Positions 1-24,000 of a stretch of DNA of 64,000 bases are shown here, one piece after another (within the stretch, counting starts at the first letter, position 1; every line of letters starts with the position of its first letter). The DNA lies in contig CM074520.1 of assembly GCA_037379345.1 (NCBI GenBank), forward strand, positions 1,178,001 through 1,242,000, written 5' to 3'. A program made the position numbers. This DNA is from Perna viridis. Lineage: Eukaryota.

Positions 1-3000
1 TTCAGTCAATGGTGTTACCATGTCTAAGGGATGAGTTTCCAGTCGATGGTGTTACCACGTCTAAGGGATGAGTTTCCAGTCAATGATGTTACTACATGCT
101 TGTATTTATATTCTCCACTTGCAAGCTTTGGATAAATGATATAAGTTGTGTCCATCCTTCCGGCTGTACTCTCATTCTGTAGCAGGTACCCTTCTATTAT
201 CCATCACTCCTTCAGCGCCAATGAATGGAATATGATAAAACTTTCACAGAATATTTATGTAATATTGAAAATGTATGCTTTGATCTCCATGCTTTTAGGG
301 TGTTTCCATAGCAAGGCATGGACTTTGTCCCTTATGAATATTGGGTACCCATTTCTTACCTGTAGCATCTCCTACATCAGTGAATGGAATTGAATGTGAA
401 GTTTCTTTTTAGATTTTGATCTAAATGTTTTGTTCTCACTAAGCCAATCGTGGATTTTGTCATTCCTCGACATGGAATGTAGGGTATATATTTAGTAATC
501 ATTGCTAACCGGCTGTGCTCACAGGTTTTCTATTGAAGATGCATTTGTTTTAATTTTTTTCTGAAGTTTTTCATAAATCAAACAATAAAATTTAAAAGTT
601 CTTGACAAATTTACAGGTACTCTATATACTACACGTTTTAAACAGGAACAGACGCCAACAGTAAAATATTACTTTTAAATGTTTTTTTTCATGTAACCTA
701 CTATTGTTCAACTCATTTAGTTCAAGGTCAAATAGTTCATTTTTAAACAGTCTACATACTTTTTACATGAATTCCGTCCTTTCGATAATCGTACGAATTG
801 CTGATGGTAATGAAACACAACCTTTCTAGTTTTTAAGTAGATTGGTATCGAAAGTCATGCTTTGTTGCTCTGAATATGTATCGTTACAAAATTCATCACG
901 CTTTTTCATTTGAATACGAATATTATCACTACGACAATTAGAAAACTACTAAATACCCCTGTAACGATGTAAGGCACATTCTTTCGTTTTGTTGTTAGTA
1001 TGTTCTGAAGCAAAGTAGGATCGAGTTTTATGGTTGAAATATAAATATTACCAATTACAGATGGTGTCGCAATATTGAAGTTTGATGCATTGAATATTAC
1101 TTCTATGGTCCAATCAAATGTAAACCGAACATTGACACAAGGTGTATGGTCCAGTTCCCAGTCTGGAGAAATCTTGTGGACCTGTAAACTAATATTCTTT
1201 CTCTCTTCTTGGTCCTCGTTAGTAATATTTATATCTGTAAGTCGTTTCCTGCTTGGGTTTATAAAAGTAACAGTCGGAAATGGGTCACCTTCGATGATAC
1301 ACGTCAATTGTGATTTCTGCCCAGCAAAGATTGTTATGTTAATTTTATGTTTCCTTTTAGAATTGTCAACTTTCCTTTCATCTATGGCAACATCCCTTCA
1401 GCACCTGCGTATGGAGTGTTCATATCACAACTCATACGTTATGCCAGAGCTTGCCGAAACTACACAGACTTTTTGTTTCGCGCTAGAACTCTAACAAATC
1501 GGCTTCTGGAACAGGGTTATGTTGCTACAAGATTGAAGTCATCACTACAGAAGTTTTATAGTCGTCATCATGAACTCGTGGATCGTTACGGTGTATCCAT
1601 CTGCACCATGAAAACTGATTTATTCAACGGATCATAGTTTTCCTTTCCCCGTTTGTCTACCCCGGACTTGACTTTTTATGAGCAACTCGGCGGGTGTTGC
1701 AGAGGACGCTTACCCTACCGGTGCACCGGGTCCATGCTCCCAGTTTTTAGTGGAGTCCGAGTTGCTCATTTGCTTTTGTTACTTTGTATGTATGATTATT
1801 AGCTACTTTATGTTCTTTGTTGTGTATGTCTGTTTTCCATGTCTGGTCTTTGTCCCTGGATTACATTCTTTAGTGTGGTAGCAGTATAAGTCTTATTACT
1901 GCTATTATTTTCTACGTCTACCTCTGATAATAAACATTGGATGTAAAACGTTTTGCAGAAAAAAAATATTGTTTTGGTCTTTGTCTGCTGGTACAACAAG
2001 ATATTTGTCATGTATAGTAGACAATGTAGCATTGTAATCCATTTCTCTATGAAAAAAACGAATTTTCATATTCGCCAGTCGCAACACTTTAAATAGTGTC
2101 AAATTACGGAAAGAGTTGGGGGCAATTTGACAATTTACATTTCCACTTAAATTAAGACTCGTCAAGTCATTTAAACCTCTAAATATTCCGTTGTTTATGA
2201 CAGGTATTTCATTATACGATAATGATAATTAAGTGTTTAAGTTCCTCAAACGTCCTTTCATCAATTATTTTAATTCCACAACGTGACCGTGTAACATGCC
2301 AAATGATTGGGAACTTCAATAATGACTTGTTGAGGTTCCCAAAATAACTAGGTCTGCTTATATTACCGATGATAACTAACACTTTCATGTTTTGAGGAAG
2401 TTCTGTGGGAAATAAATTCAAAATCTGATCATAATTGCAACCACTTCAATTCGCACCACAACTACATTCCTTTGGACAATTTTGGCAAAGAACATAGTGT
2501 ATTTTTGCGCACAGAAGAATATCTAAGGTGATACTAACATCTTCTGGTGGCACATAACAAATCACCTAAACTCATCGACAATAATATAATAGTGGACTAG
2601 ATATTTCTCCCTAACCACGTGGATATTGATGTTCACTTTGGGTAGCGAATTTAATATAAATTGAATTAACTATATATTCATTATGTTAAATTGCCATTTC
2701 GCACCTTATTTGTTACAATTTGTCGCTAAGTAATTACAATATTTAATTTTACTAGAACACTTAATGTTTGTCATTCACGTTATGATCTAACCTAATCCAA
2801 ACAGTTCTTATTGGTAATCTTAGCTTAAGGATGAAGGCAAGCGTTTCACAAGGATGCAATAATCTTAATCGGCTACATGTATGACTTTTTATCGATTCCA
2901 TACCCATATATTATGTTTTTAAGTCTTAACTAAGCACAAAATATTTAGGATGTCTAACATGATGGTCCAATTTCACCGCTTCCTTTACAAAGAGGAATAA

Positions 3001-21000: not shown

Positions 21001-24000
21001 ACTGGTTTTAAAAATCCTTGCGAGGGCATTTTAAATTTAACTGTCGTTTGAGGTGGTAGAGTTGTCTTTTTCAGCGACACCATCACTCCAGATGTTTTAC
21101 GAGTACCTTCAGCATATGCCGCTATAATCCAACCTCCAAAGTATTTTTGTTGTACTTGAGAAATGCACAGAGAACCATTGTTATGCAACACAAAATTAGT
21201 ATTTGTAAAATTCACGATGATACCACTTTTCTGGTGTTTCCAACTTGCCTTGGGGAACGGATCACCATCAACAACACATGGTAGACACAGAGAGTCTCCA
21301 GGAAAAACTGTCATCAGATGACTTCCACAATTTATTTCAGGATCCCTGTGGCTCAACACACATCCACCTGAACATAATAAAAACAAAAATAAAAAATTCA
21401 GAACCGTCATCATCTTATTCCAAAAACCGTATTTCGTTTAATTTGGTATTTTCCTTGTAAATTCTAATTCATACTGAACGTCGTCAGTTTATATCTGCTT
21501 CAGGTTTTGACTGACGTCTTAGTATTAGGAAGGTATTAAGAAAGGCATGTTCTCTCAAAAGTGTGCAAGTTCTGTTTGTCAAATATTACATCGAAAAAAC
21601 AGTGATTAGTTCCCTTTATATCCAACCTTTACTCAGGTAATTTTTCTTTGATATTAAACAATTGTGATACAATCTAAATCTTCTCTCCCCAAGTATGCAA
21701 ATATCACTTTTCATTTTGATATGCCTTCTTTTTCATCCTTATGATATATACATGCTTAACAAGATTGCAATAAAATGAAATAAATCAGCTTTTAATCTTC
21801 TATTGATTCTACAGCAGATCATTTGAAAAGATATTCGTCAGTTGACTCGTACAATGGCTTTACTGACGAGCACAATATCTATATCCATCATGCAGATGGA
21901 CATGCGGCGGTTTAGTATTTCAGTGGGATACCAATATAGATTGTACTTTTGCGTAAGGTCCAATACATGGTATTACGAACTTTGATCTTACATGTCACTA
22001 TCTGGAATGGTTCGTTCTACTGTTACATATACGCGGAACTTCCTTGATTCACAGAAATCATGATTTGGAAAATAACAATTTATTCCTTTAAAATCATATC
22101 GCACTTTGTAGCAATGCAGAAGGCAAAACCGAGGATAAAACAATGCCAGGAAACCAAAAAGACAGCAGACAAACAAAACAATTGTCAGGAAACCGAAAAA
22201 AATACAACAGACGAACAAAACAATATCAGGAAACCAAAAAGACAGCAGACGAATAAAATAATGCCAGGAAACCGACCGAAAAGATAGTAGGCGAAGAACA
22301 AACCGTACCTTATAACTGAAAAGTAAACAAAGAAAAAAAACGAACGAACCGAACAACGTTTATAAAAACAAAGCTTCCGCTAAAAAGTGATGTGTATGAA
22401 CAGTAAATAAGTCGTCAAAAGAGGAATCACTTTCGTGTGCATACTTTCTCTGTCTTATGGGAACAACCGTATTGGTTAATACTTAACTATTAATTATAAG
22501 AATACGACATCTTAGTTACCTTACCGAATAACTGAATCGACGTAGGAGGACGGACAAACAACTAATGATTTTTTTTTATCTCTATACAAAATATGTACTA
22601 TTTTGTTTAGAGTTATTGTTTAAGTTCGAAGAGGAGCATCAAATACCTTATAAAAAGTTCAAAATGAAACTGAAACAACACTGTCCTATCAGATAAATCA
22701 TTTTTAAAAAGTATATGTATGTGTTATATTAAAGAATGATACAATGTTTGAATTCTTAATTTGATTTAACACATGTATTCTGTATAACAATCTCTTTCTA
22801 AAGACAATCAAATAGGCTCCTAGAGAGAATAATAATCTGGTCTGACAAATAACTGCCATGATAACCTACATAAAAATAAAACGAATAAACACTTCAATCA
22901 AAAGATTCACTTCTCATTAAGTCCGGTCTTGGCTATTAAATAAAGCATCTGCTAAAAAGAGAAGTGAATGCACCTTAAATAATTCATCAAATGAGATATC
23001 GCTTTTGTATAGCATGGGTTGTGTCCTTATTGTATGACTTGTGAAGTATCGTGATTCTCAACCCCGCACCATGTACAAAATTAGGATTGATTTTGCATAC
23101 GATGCGGGCATAACTCTGTAGGTTTAAACTGGTCTAGAGCTGGCATGTCAGTTAACTGCTAGAAGTAGTCCTTAGTTTGTTCCTTTGTTTAATTTACATT
23201 CAGTTTCTTCATTTTCGTTGTAACAAGGGACAGACCTTTTTGAACAGATGTTTAGGTGTGTTTTATTGCGTAATATTTTTTCCACAGTGGCCAGATTTGA
23301 AAGGGGGTTGTGATCACGCCAAAGTATATTAACCCCGCCGAATTTTTGCGCCTATTCAATCTCAAGAATTTCAGGCCTCTCTATGTCTTGTTTTGTATTC
23401 ACCTTTAGTTTATTTCTATGTTACTTGAGTATATATCATGAATTGTACGATCGGCGCCGTATACATAAAAAAAATTGCAACGTGTTTTGAAAACACATAA
23501 AAAGCATAATTATGTTTATCATAGTTATGTTTATCCTATTTTAGGAACACCATGAAAAACATGTTTCAGGCTAACGAATTAATTCATGAAAAAAAAAAAA
23601 TAAATAAAAATCATATGGTATATCACTCAGGGGCACCAGTGTTTGGTTGAATACCTCTTCTATATATATTGCGTAGTTTTGGTAGTTTATTAAACCACAA
23701 AAAAATTTAATGTATTTACTTCTGTTTTTGGAACTGAAAAGTTACTACGCAGGCTTTTTGTACCGTGCTATATTTCTTACAATTAGGCTTGTGGAAAAGG
23801 ATTATTTTGCTTCAAGATTGAAGTCACCACTACAGAAGTTTTATGGTCGTCATCGTGAACTCATGGATGGTTACAGTGTATCCATCTGCACCATGAAAAT
23901 TGATTTTTTGAACGTGTTATAGTTTTCCTTTCGTCTTTCGTCTACCCTGGACTTGACTTTTTACGAGCAACTAGGCGAATGTTTCTTGAAAAGCAGAGGA

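What the first reader, a model, noticed from the sequence alone, without database searches (positions are those of the whole stretch)
906..21413. Tandem receptor family with domain loss: LRR-Ig pseudogene, intact LRR-Ig and LRR-less Ig-only gene
Seen: three same-strand loci 9-11 kb apart, each with an uninterrupted coding region, share the Ig signature C-x-x-[ED]-G-[DK]-P-x-P (CIIEGDPFP, CSFEGKPKP, CVVDGDPFP), then a variable stalk and a TM. The third gene joins its signal peptide directly to the Ig domain and has no LRRs. Stalks and tails cannot be aligned. Inference: a fast birth-and-death family of recognition receptors, where the Ig-only member could be a co-receptor or decoy for LRR-bearing members. 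Both intact TMs have GxxxG-type motifs. The cluster may continue beyond the left edge.
Basis: partly seen in the sequence, partly recalled or inferred. Interest (0 to 1): 0.72.

Follow-up and report, generated by a model that had tools for sequence, protein, structure and literature searches.

The report
Mussel LRR-Ig receptor gene trio
Three neighbouring bivalve genes for cell-surface proteins are one intact LRR-Ig receptor, one dead copy, and one short gene that keeps only the family's unusual immunoglobulin domain; this is an ordinary kind of gene-family evolution with one modestly interesting twist.

Summary
On the minus strand lie g1 (906-2493), g2 (9706-11205) and g3 (20628-21413).

- **g1** is a dead LRR-Ig gene. 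It has no start codon, an in-frame stop and a broken frame. A 520-bp interspersed repeat sits where LRR5-LRRCT should be.
- **g2** is an intact 499-aa SP-LRR-Ig-Thr-rich stalk-TM gene.
- **g3** is an intact 261-aa SP-Ig-stalk-TM gene with no LRRs.

Kinship of g3 with the LRR-Ig family rests on three rare characters instead:
- a Cys exactly 17 residues before the B-strand Cys;
- the F-strand Tyr replaced by Trp;
- the F-strand Cys lost.

All three occur together in g3 and in every family row examined, and in 0 of 1963 other Ig domains. Overall similarity and trees do not resolve the question.

The paralogs are old (28-47% identity, no DNA similarity), so "fast birth-and-death" is not shown. The co-receptor or decoy idea stays untested. 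A sulfotransferase gene on the other strand interrupts the array. I rate this a new variant of a known kind, of modest interest.

The parts
2239..2493 (-). g1 pseudogene, LRRNT and first LRRs. There is no in-frame ATG after the stop at 2566-2568, and a TGA lies inside the LRRNT.
   Evidence: tblastn of g2 residues 14-96 gives 34% identity. Translation. P0008 is 36% identical over 95 aa.
2040..2228 (-). g1 pseudogene, LRR piece 2. It lies in another frame than piece 1.
   Evidence: tblastn of g2 residues 102-164 gives 40% identity. P0004 is 47% identical over 59 aa. Pfam LRR_8 at 4.8e-08.
1350..1871 (.). Interspersed repeat copy lying where LRR5-LRRCT of g1 should be.
   Evidence: blastn finds 9 further matches in the window at 79-94% identity.
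906..1397 (-). g1 pseudogene, open frame holding the Ig remnant (about 1143-1337), a short stalk and a TM, with the stop right after the TM.
   Evidence: Ig_3 at 7e-4; 29.3 bits to the family Ig profile. Hydropathy.
9706..11205 (-). g2, an intact single-ORF gene of 499 aa: signal peptide, LRRNT, LRRs, LRRCT-like cap, Ig, Thr-rich stalk, TM and a tail of about 42 aa.
10381..11148 (-). g2 LRR ectodomain (residues about 20-275).
   Evidence: Pfam LRR_8 at 1.7e-27. PDB LRFN5 aligns over residues 17-374.
10093..10371 (-). g2 Ig domain (residues 279-371). It has Cys285 17 residues before the B-strand Cys302, and W-T-L in place of Y-x-C.
9835..9906 (-). g2 TM helix with a GGGGG run, conserved in P0003 and P0004.
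20628..21413 (-). g3, an intact single-ORF gene of 261 aa: signal peptide, Ig, N/Q/S/T-rich stalk, TM and a short tail. It has no LRR.
21063..21350 (-). g3 Ig domain (residues 22-117). It has Cys29 17 residues before Cys46, and W-I-I in place of Y-x-C.
   Evidence: AF2 pLDDT of 80-89. Foldseek top hits are the Ig domains of LINGO-1 and SALM5.
20691..20759 (-). g3 TM helix holding GAVAG.
   Evidence: AF2 helix at residues 219-247. Hydropathy and GxxxG at residue 220.

Best explanation
The locus holds three old paralogs of a bivalve family of intronless, type-I membrane LRR-Ig proteins, one of the LRRIG class that includes SALM/LRFN, NGL, LINGO and LRIG.

- **g2** is the working member. Its LRR horseshoe and one Ig domain sit on a Thr-rich, probably O-glycosylated stalk above a Gly-rich TM helix and a short tail with no recognisable signalling domain.
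- **g1** is a dead member.
- **g3** is most likely a derivative that lost the whole LRR module. Its signal peptide now joins the LRRCT-Ig linker directly.

g3 keeps the family's peculiar Ig domain, in which the canonical B-F disulfide is gone (Y-x-C became W-x-L/I) and a Cys sits 17 residues before the B-strand Cys.

**Shown:** gene structures, domain content, the pseudogene lesions and the shared rare characters.

**Inferred:**
- The direction of change was loss, not gain.
- The two cysteines form a replacement disulfide.
- g2 acts as a surface recognition or adhesion receptor that needs a partner to signal.
- g3 displays a lone Ig domain and cannot bind whatever the LRRs bind.
For: **g2.**
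- Pfam LRR_8 at 1.7e-27 and I-set at 3.8e-13.
- It aligns end to end with the LRR-Ig part of LRFN5 (residues 17-374 against 23-382, 7.9e-26). LRIG1, LRRC4C and LINGO-1 also match.
- Relatives at 45-53% identity occur in Mytilus species and in unnamed records. The TM and tail are conserved in P0003 and P0004.

**g1.**
- LRR pieces are 31-47% identical to the family.
- Lesions are shown.

**g3.**
- All three rare characters occur together in 10 of 10 family rows (g3, P0001, g2, P0002-P0007, P0009) and in 0 of 1963 other Ig domains from 152 proteins. Singly they are rare: no F-strand Cys in 98, Trp in 14, Cys in the -22 to -14 window in 29.
- A Cys at exactly -17 occurs in 5 of 2040 other domains.
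- PDB alignments place g2's W-T-L on the Y-x-C of canonical domains.
- The alignment of g3 with the family has P25, C29, C46, G50, W58, L82, G93 and W95 invariant.
- The best careful tree joins g3 to the family.
- P0003 is the second best non-self single-domain match of g3's Ig, among 1545 domain rows.
- The AF2 model gives a confident Ig (pLDDT 80-89), a disordered stalk and a TM helix.
- The best Foldseek matches to that model are the Ig domains of the LRR-Ig proteins LINGO-1 (1.2e-08) and SALM5 (2.2e-07).
- g3 has the same strand, the same single-exon layout and a position 9.4 kb from g2.

**Replacement disulfide.** Argopecten P0009 keeps all four LRRCT cysteines and still has the extra pair. 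The mussel members lack two LRRCT cysteines but keep the pair.
Against: - Overall similarity does not set g3 apart from generic Ig domains. It is 28-30% identical both to its neighbours and to hemicentin-like repeats.
- Against the family Ig profile g3 scores 32.1 bits, rank 184 of 2257. Generic domains reach 57.8 bits. g1, a sure member by its LRRs, scores even lower: 29.3 bits, rank 254.
- Tree support is weak: UFBoot 25, SH-aLRT 84.6, and 251 of 1000 bootstrap trees.
- The quick tree of the same 79 rows put g3 outside the family.
- With the trait columns removed, g3 joins hemicentin-like rows in a flagged long-branch join.
- I picked the three characters after seeing the alignment. The background set is mostly giant multi-Ig proteins, not single-Ig membrane proteins of bivalves.
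- g3 has no relative other than its own record, in either the near-length or the longer-length search.
- Its Pfam Ig scores are just under the curated cut-offs.
- The MSA used for the AF2 model consisted of LRR-Ig proteins, which may bias the Foldseek ranking.
- There are no expression data.
Confidence: 0.6

Rival explanations
1. g3 is an unrelated single-Ig membrane protein gene that merely lies beside LRR-Ig genes. On this view the loss of the canonical disulfide and the extra Cys arose independently.
For: - Identity to the family (28-30%) is no higher than to generic Ig repeats.
- g3 ranks 184 of 2257 against the family Ig profile.
- g3 leaves the family in the tree once the trait columns are dropped, and in the quick tree.
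- Atlas look-alikes are CADM, nectin and TMIGD1-type Ig membrane proteins (leads only).
- 98 of 1963 Ig domains have also lost the F-strand Cys.
Against: - The three characters together occur in 0 of 1963 other domains. The -17 spacing is identical in g3 and the family, against 5 of 2040 elsewhere.
- The AU test does not reject the clade even without the trait columns (p 0.443).
- g1, a proven member, is just as divergent.
- g3 lies next to the family genes, on the same strand, with the same intronless SP-...-Ig-stalk-TM layout.
Confidence: 0.27
2. g3 is a non-functional relic or an untranscribed ORF.
For: - No ortholog was found.
- Its branch in the tree is very long (4.9 changes per column).
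- Pfam scores are below the cut-offs.
- One neighbour, g1, is a pseudogene.
Against: - It is an open frame of 261 codons in DNA of about 33-37% G+C.
- The signal peptide, Ig core residues, TM and basic stop-transfer residues are all intact.
- The Ig model is confident.
- An independent record, P0001, carries the same protein with one residue changed.
Confidence: 0.1
3. g3 is the last exon of a larger gene, and its Ig is spliced to LRR exons upstream.
For: None was found. Splicing cannot be excluded without cDNA.
Against: - No LRR-like coding sequence lies anywhere in the 42.6 kb upstream, on either strand (all E>0.5).
- An in-frame stop lies 8 codons before the ATG.
- The ORF begins with a hydrophobic signal-peptide-like segment.
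- g2 and its relatives are encoded without introns.
Confidence: 0.03

Closest known systems
Vertebrate LRR-Ig synaptic adhesion proteins: LRFN/SALM, LRRC4/NGL, LINGO, and LRIG1
   Same: - These are type-I membrane proteins with LRRNT, LRRs, LRRCT and then an Ig domain.
- g2 aligns with the LRFN5 LRR-Ig part over residues 17-374 (7.9e-26), and with LRIG1, LRRC4C and LINGO-1.
- The Ig model of g3 is closest to the LINGO-1 and SALM5 Ig domains.
   Different: - There is no FN3 domain (no Pfam hit).
- A Thr-rich stalk takes its place.
- The Ig lacks the canonical B-F cysteine pair.
- The C-termini (QAYT, ARVV) do not fit the S/T-x-hydrophobic PDZ ligand that I recall for SALM1-3 and NGLs.
- Identity is only about 25-30%.
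Mytilus proteins annotated as 'leucine-rich repeat-containing protein 4C-like', 'matrix-remodeling-associated protein 5-like' and 'LRR-containing protein 15-like' (P0005-P0008), the unnamed records P0003 and P0004, and Argopecten 'LRFN1-like' P0009
   Same: This is the same family as g2: 45-53% identity (31% for P0009), and the same noncanonical Ig characters.
   Different: - P0005-P0007 end in a short hydrophobic C-terminus without the g2 tail.
- The names are automatic and point to different vertebrate families.
- No LRR-less member is among them.
Oyster CgLRRIG-1 and CgLRRIG-3
   Same: These are bivalve LRR+Ig proteins. Passages of PMC7734252 and PMC6994640 describe them as binding LPS, PGN, glucan and poly I:C, promoting hemocyte phagocytosis, and (for CgLRRIG-1) carrying a TM domain.
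   Different: An immune role for g2 is only an analogy.
Single-Ig membrane proteins such as TMIGD1, and CADM or nectin-type adhesion molecules
   Same: The layout of g3 (SP, Ig, TM, short tail) matches. These are the nearest clusters by language-model features (scores 0.91-0.92).
   Different: There is no alignment or E-value behind these hits. They have canonical Ig cysteines as far as I recall, which I did not test.

Membership tests
LRRIG class (type-I membrane protein with LRR module plus Ig), for g2 | Several LRRs | tested here: met
   Pfam LRR_8 at 1.7e-27 in 3 stretches, and LRR_4 at 1.6e-15.
LRRIG class, for g2 | Ig domain C-terminal to the LRR module | tested here: met
   I-set at 3.8e-13 and 49.7 bits, above the cut-off of 23.7, at residues 288-371.
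LRRIG class, for g2 | Signal peptide and a single TM helix | tested here: met
   Hydrophobic N-terminus. Hydropathy peak at residues 434-460. The segment is conserved in P0003 and P0004.
LRRIG class, for g2 | Cysteine-capped LRRCT | tested here: inconclusive
   N227, P228, C231, W237 and C256 are invariant. No Pfam LRRCT hit was listed. Two of the four usual cysteines are absent in the mussel members.
LRFN/SALM | FN3 domain between Ig and TM | tested here: not met
   No fn3 match at E<=0.1. A Thr-rich stalk lies there instead.
Bivalve LRR-Ig family of g2, for g1 | LRR module homologous to the family | tested here: met
   31-47% identity to g2, P0003, P0004, P0008 and P0009, with E down to 1.6e-20. 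The gene is disabled.
Bivalve LRR-Ig family of g2, for g3 | Ig subtype: Cys 17 residues before the B-strand Cys, and W-x-[LI] in place of Y-x-C | tested here: met
   10 of 10 family rows, g3 included, against 0 of 1963 other domains. The exact -17 spacing occurs in 5 of 2040 others.
Bivalve LRR-Ig family of g2, for g3 | Ig domain closer to the family than to other Ig domains, by profile score or tree | tested here: inconclusive
   - Rank 184 of 2257 against the family profile.
- The clade is present in the best careful tree at 25/84.6.
- The clade is absent when the trait columns are dropped, yet not rejected (AU p 0.443).
Bivalve LRR-Ig family of g2, for g3 | LRR module | tested here: not met
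   No LRR in g3 or in the 42.6 kb upstream. This is the claimed domain loss, so g3 is at most a derivative and not an LRR-Ig protein.
Immunoglobulin fold, for g3 | Recognisable Ig domain | tested here: met
   - Pfam scores are just under the cut-offs: Ig_3 at 29.3 against 30, I-set at 23.4 against 23.7.
- 356 library proteins match at E<=0.001, all through Ig repeats.
- AF2 pLDDT is 80-89.
- Foldseek probability is 1.00 to solved Ig domains.

The most novel reading that the evidence does not exclude
A bivalve LRR-Ig receptor family has replaced the canonical B-F disulfide of its Ig domain with an A-B disulfide. One lineage then produced an LRR-less paralog, g3, that sits next to its parent genes. 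Through this shared Ig and its GxxxG-bearing TM helix, g3 would act as a membrane-bound partner or decoy that tunes the LRR-bearing receptors.
Probability: 0.1. Interest if true: 0.5.

Novelty: new variant of a known kind. Interest (0 to 1): 0.3.

Why it matters
LRR-Ig membrane proteins are a large and poorly understood receptor class in molluscs. The passages I read on oysters link some of them to microbial recognition (PMC7734252, PMC6994640).

A family-specific Ig signature would give a sharper probe than the generic Ig motif for cataloguing this family and its LRR-less derivatives in bivalve genomes. That signature is the Cys at -17 together with W-x-L/I in place of Y-x-C.

The trio also gives a natural set for asking what the LRR module contributes: an intact gene, a dead gene and a domain-loss gene side by side.

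Beyond that, gene duplication with pseudogenes and domain loss is commonplace. Nothing here opens a long-standing question.

Tried and rejected
- **Translation across g1's LRR region.** Translating 1905-2445 as one frame failed on 11 stops. I used tblastn and single-frame translation instead.
- **Complex prediction.** I sent the g2 ectodomain (residues 17-375) with the g3 Ig (residues 22-120). It returned 'no answer' (score 0.00, controls not run). This says nothing either way about binding.
- **Near-length and longer-length word-index searches with g3.** They found only its own record (1 of 444 candidates) or nothing (0 of 1286).
- **Full HMMER search with g3.** The list is dominated by giant multi-Ig proteins whose many repeats add up. 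Single-Ig relatives at about 30 bits could not appear, so it cannot show that g3 stands alone.
- **Phylogeny of 79 Ig domains.** The placement of g3 changed with method, sampling and columns, so I do not use it as support.
  - In one search I dropped 10 long-branch rows and every second non-family row (79 down to 39). That made the clade appear at 97.4 SH-aLRT. I treat that as unstable.
- **First tally of Ig characters.** It used a query-anchored phmmer alignment of 246 domains. One search replaced it with a profile-anchored tally.
- **DNA comparison of the g2 and g3 loci.** It found only the shared interspersed repeat.
- **Protein Atlas.** It gave generic Ig adhesion look-alikes.
- **Literature searches.** None of the listed papers describes this mussel family, an LRR-less derivative or the noncanonical Ig cysteines. 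The library lacks most subscription journals, including the original CgLRRIG papers.
  - No RNA-seq data were available.
  - dN/dS could not be computed, because no orthologous DNA was available.

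
Full report
**What is there.**

The window is AT-rich eukaryotic DNA (G+C 0.28-0.40) without any N. The best named relatives of its proteins come from Mytilus species. It is therefore bivalve, probably from a mytilid mussel whose own proteins occur only in unnamed records.

On the minus strand lie three loci.

- **g2 (9706-11205)** is one ORF of 499 aa.
  - Pfam finds LRR_8 (1.7e-27), LRR_4 and I-set (3.8e-13).
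  - The layout is signal peptide, LRRNT, LRRs, an LRRCT-like cap, one Ig domain, a Thr-rich stalk (24 Thr in 66 residues), a TM helix with a GGGGG run, and a tail of about 42 residues.
- **g3 (20628-21413)** is one ORF of 261 aa.
  - It has a hydrophobic N-terminus and an Ig domain whose Pfam scores fall just under the curated cut-offs: Ig_3 at 29.3 against 30, and I-set at 23.4 against 23.7.
  - An N/Q/S/T-rich stalk of about 100 residues, a TM helix containing GAVAG, and a short tail follow.
- **g1 (906-2493)** is broken.
  - Its LRR part matches g2 in two frames: 2239-2493 at 34% identity and 2040-2228 at 40%.
  - It has no in-frame ATG after the stop at 2566-2568 and a TGA inside the LRRNT.
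  - The part that would encode g2 residues 165-289 is missing. A 520-bp interspersed repeat (1350-1871) with 9 further matches in the window lies there.
  - Downstream, an open frame (906-1397) still holds half an Ig domain and a TM, and stops right after the TM.

g2 and g3 are single ORFs, and the pieces of g1 were searched one by one.

Coordinates, strand, spacing, the three motif strings, the direct signal-peptide-to-Ig junction of g3 and the GxxxG motifs are all as described. Stalks and tails indeed do not align; nothing outside the Ig domain was better than E 0.15.

Two qualifications apply.

- The motif is mostly the generic signature of I-set-type Ig domains. C...G.P.P occurs in 1306 of 2094 Ig domains of unrelated proteins.
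- The array is not purely tandem. A plus-strand galactose-3-O-sulfotransferase ORF (14705-15946, Pfam 4.6e-52) lies between g2 and g3.

**Is g3 really kin of the LRR-Ig genes?**

By overall similarity one cannot tell.

- The Ig domains are 28% (g2/g3), 30% (g1/g3) and 35% (g1/g2) identical.
- A full HMMER search of 1.84 billion representatives with g3 gave 356 proteins at E<=0.001. All of the best 150 apart from g3's own record matched through 3-28 Ig repeats at 25-39% identity.
- All 10 shorter hits that I scanned were multi-Ig proteins without LRRs.
- Per domain, the best non-self match of g3's Ig is a hemicentin-like repeat (34.9 bits). The LRR-Ig protein P0003 follows at 30.2 bits. g2 ranks 30th and g1 54th of 1545 rows.
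- Against a profile of the family's Ig domain, g3 scores 32.1 bits (rank 184 of 2257) and g1 29.3 bits (rank 254). Generic domains reach 57.8 bits.
- Since g1 is a member beyond doubt through its LRRs, this measure simply lacks power for such old paralogs.

Rare characters are more telling. I aligned Ig domains to a profile built from non-family domains.

- Every family row has a Cys 17 residues before the B-strand Cys, Trp where Ig domains have the F-strand Tyr, and Leu or Ile where they have the F-strand Cys. The rows are g2, P0002-P0007, Argopecten P0009, g3 and its record P0001.
- I counted 1963 non-family domains from 152 proteins. Another 131 of the 2094 were dropped because they lacked a residue at the B or F column.
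- Of these 1963, 98 lack the F-strand Cys, 14 have the Trp, and 29 have a Cys anywhere from -22 to -14. None has all three.
- The exact -17 spacing occurs in 5 of 2040.
- Alignments to solved structures confirm that g2's W-T-L lies on the Y-x-C of neurofascin, Robo and DSCAM domains.
- g1's Ig is cut by the repeat before the first character and is degenerate at the others.

These characters were chosen after looking at the alignment. The background is dominated by giant multi-Ig proteins. The result is therefore strong circumstantial evidence, not proof.

**Trees.**

The input was 79 Ig domains: 8 from the family plus g3, the 25 best domain matches to g3, the 25 best to g2, and 25 random ones.

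- The careful ML tree joins g3 to the family with weak support: UFBoot 25, SH-aLRT 84.6, and 251 of 1000 bootstrap trees.
- The quick tree of the same rows left g3 outside.
- A thinned set of 39 rows gave the clade at 97.4.
- With the columns holding the three characters removed, g3 joins hemicentin-like rows in a flagged long-branch join. The AU test still does not reject g3 plus family (log-likelihood difference 2.36, p 0.443).

The tree is therefore uninformative either way.

**Structure.**

An AlphaFold2 model of g3 used an 8-row alignment.

- It gives an all-beta domain at residues 21-115 with pLDDT 80-89, a disordered stalk (residues 139-224 below 50) and a helix at residues 219-247.
- Its best Foldseek matches in the PDB are the Ig domains of LINGO-1 (1.2e-08) and SALM5 (2.2e-07). 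Robo, Sidekick and titin domains follow from 3.3e-07.
- The margins are small, and the alignment rows were LRR-Ig proteins.

**Age and direction.**

- g2 is 45-53% identical to proteins of other mussels and 31% identical to an Argopecten protein. This is more than to g1 or g3.
- g1's LRRs are 31-47% identical to every family member tried.
- The g2 and g3 loci share no DNA similarity except a common repeat.

These are old duplicates. One death (g1) is documented, but rapid turnover is not.

I infer that g3 arose by loss of the LRR module, for three reasons.

- The LRR-Ig layout is widespread.
- The family reaches pectinids.
- g3 has no detectable relative.

g3's mature N-terminus (HRDPEINC...) aligns with the LRRCT-Ig linker of the family (PKIVYC.., PKVVNC..). 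A deletion would thus have run from just after the signal peptide to that linker.

**How it probably works.**

By analogy with solved LRR-Ig ectodomains, g2 should be a surface recognition or adhesion receptor that binds through its LRR face and Ig. A glycosylated stalk holds it away from the membrane. Its short tail lacks a known signalling domain, so signalling would need a partner. This is inference.

The paired presence of the -17 Cys and the B-strand Cys suggests that they form a replacement disulfide.

- In Argopecten all four LRRCT cysteines are also present.
- In the mussels two LRRCT cysteines are gone.
- In g3 there is no LRRCT at all.

No coordinates were available to test this. g3 would show a lone Ig of this subtype and cannot bind what the LRRs bind.

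Whether g3 pairs with g2 is open. Oyster LRR-Ig proteins have been reported as microbial pattern receptors (passages of PMC7734252 and PMC6994640). Vertebrate ones are synaptic organisers (abstracts of PMC5773555 and PMC5773591 in a search listing). Neither role was tested here.

**Literature.**

Four searches listed no paper on this mussel family, its Ig peculiarity or an LRR-less derivative. The library lacks most subscription journals. Supplementary files were not consulted.

**What stayed unchecked.**

- Expression.
- Synteny in other bivalves.
- Selection measures.
- The left edge of the window, where the cluster may continue.

**Verdict.**

This is an ordinary old gene family with one pseudogene and one probable domain-loss derivative. 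A family-specific noncanonical Ig domain is the only mildly novel feature.

Noticed in passing
window 14705-15946 (+): An open frame of 413 codons matches galactose-3-O-sulfotransferase (Pfam 4.6e-52, profile positions 61-344 of 402). It has a hydrophobic N-terminal stretch but no ATG before 15026, so a first exon probably lies upstream. It sits between g2 and g3 on the opposite strand.
   Followed up: partly
window 31495-34443 (+) and 52425-55250 (-): Two large single-ORF protocadherin-like genes. Each has six Cadherin-domain stretches (Pfam 1.1e-95 and 3.3e-103) plus Cadherin_2, followed by a TM-like segment.
   Followed up: partly
window 1350-1871, 12153-12709, 45864-46386, 23744-24166, 19899-20262, 44936-45190, 36220-36454 and others: An interspersed repeat of about 520 bp, with 9 further matches at 79-94% identity. 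It carries a conserved ORF fragment with no Pfam match. One copy disrupts g1. Another lies about 370 bp downstream of g3.
   Followed up: partly
window 47535-48986: A G-rich minisatellite with a period of 26 or 51 bp, about 57 or 28 copies, 83-85% matches and GC skew up to 0.43. It creates long spurious open frames in several phases.
   Followed up: partly
window 27393-27756, 39545-40068, 42381-42685, 57729-58025: Further tandem arrays with periods of 30/131, 54/165, 50 and 59 bp. They also give spurious ORFs.
   Followed up: no
P0005-P0007 (Mytilus proteins found): These annotated relatives of g2 start inside the LRR region and end in a short hydrophobic C-terminus without a cytoplasmic tail. 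They are either GPI-anchored-type variants or incomplete gene models.
   Followed up: no
window 20628-21413 (g3 residues 43 and 82): g3 has two further cysteines, one in the B-strand region and one in the E-strand region, that the LRR-Ig family lacks. They might form a second noncanonical disulfide.
   Followed up: no
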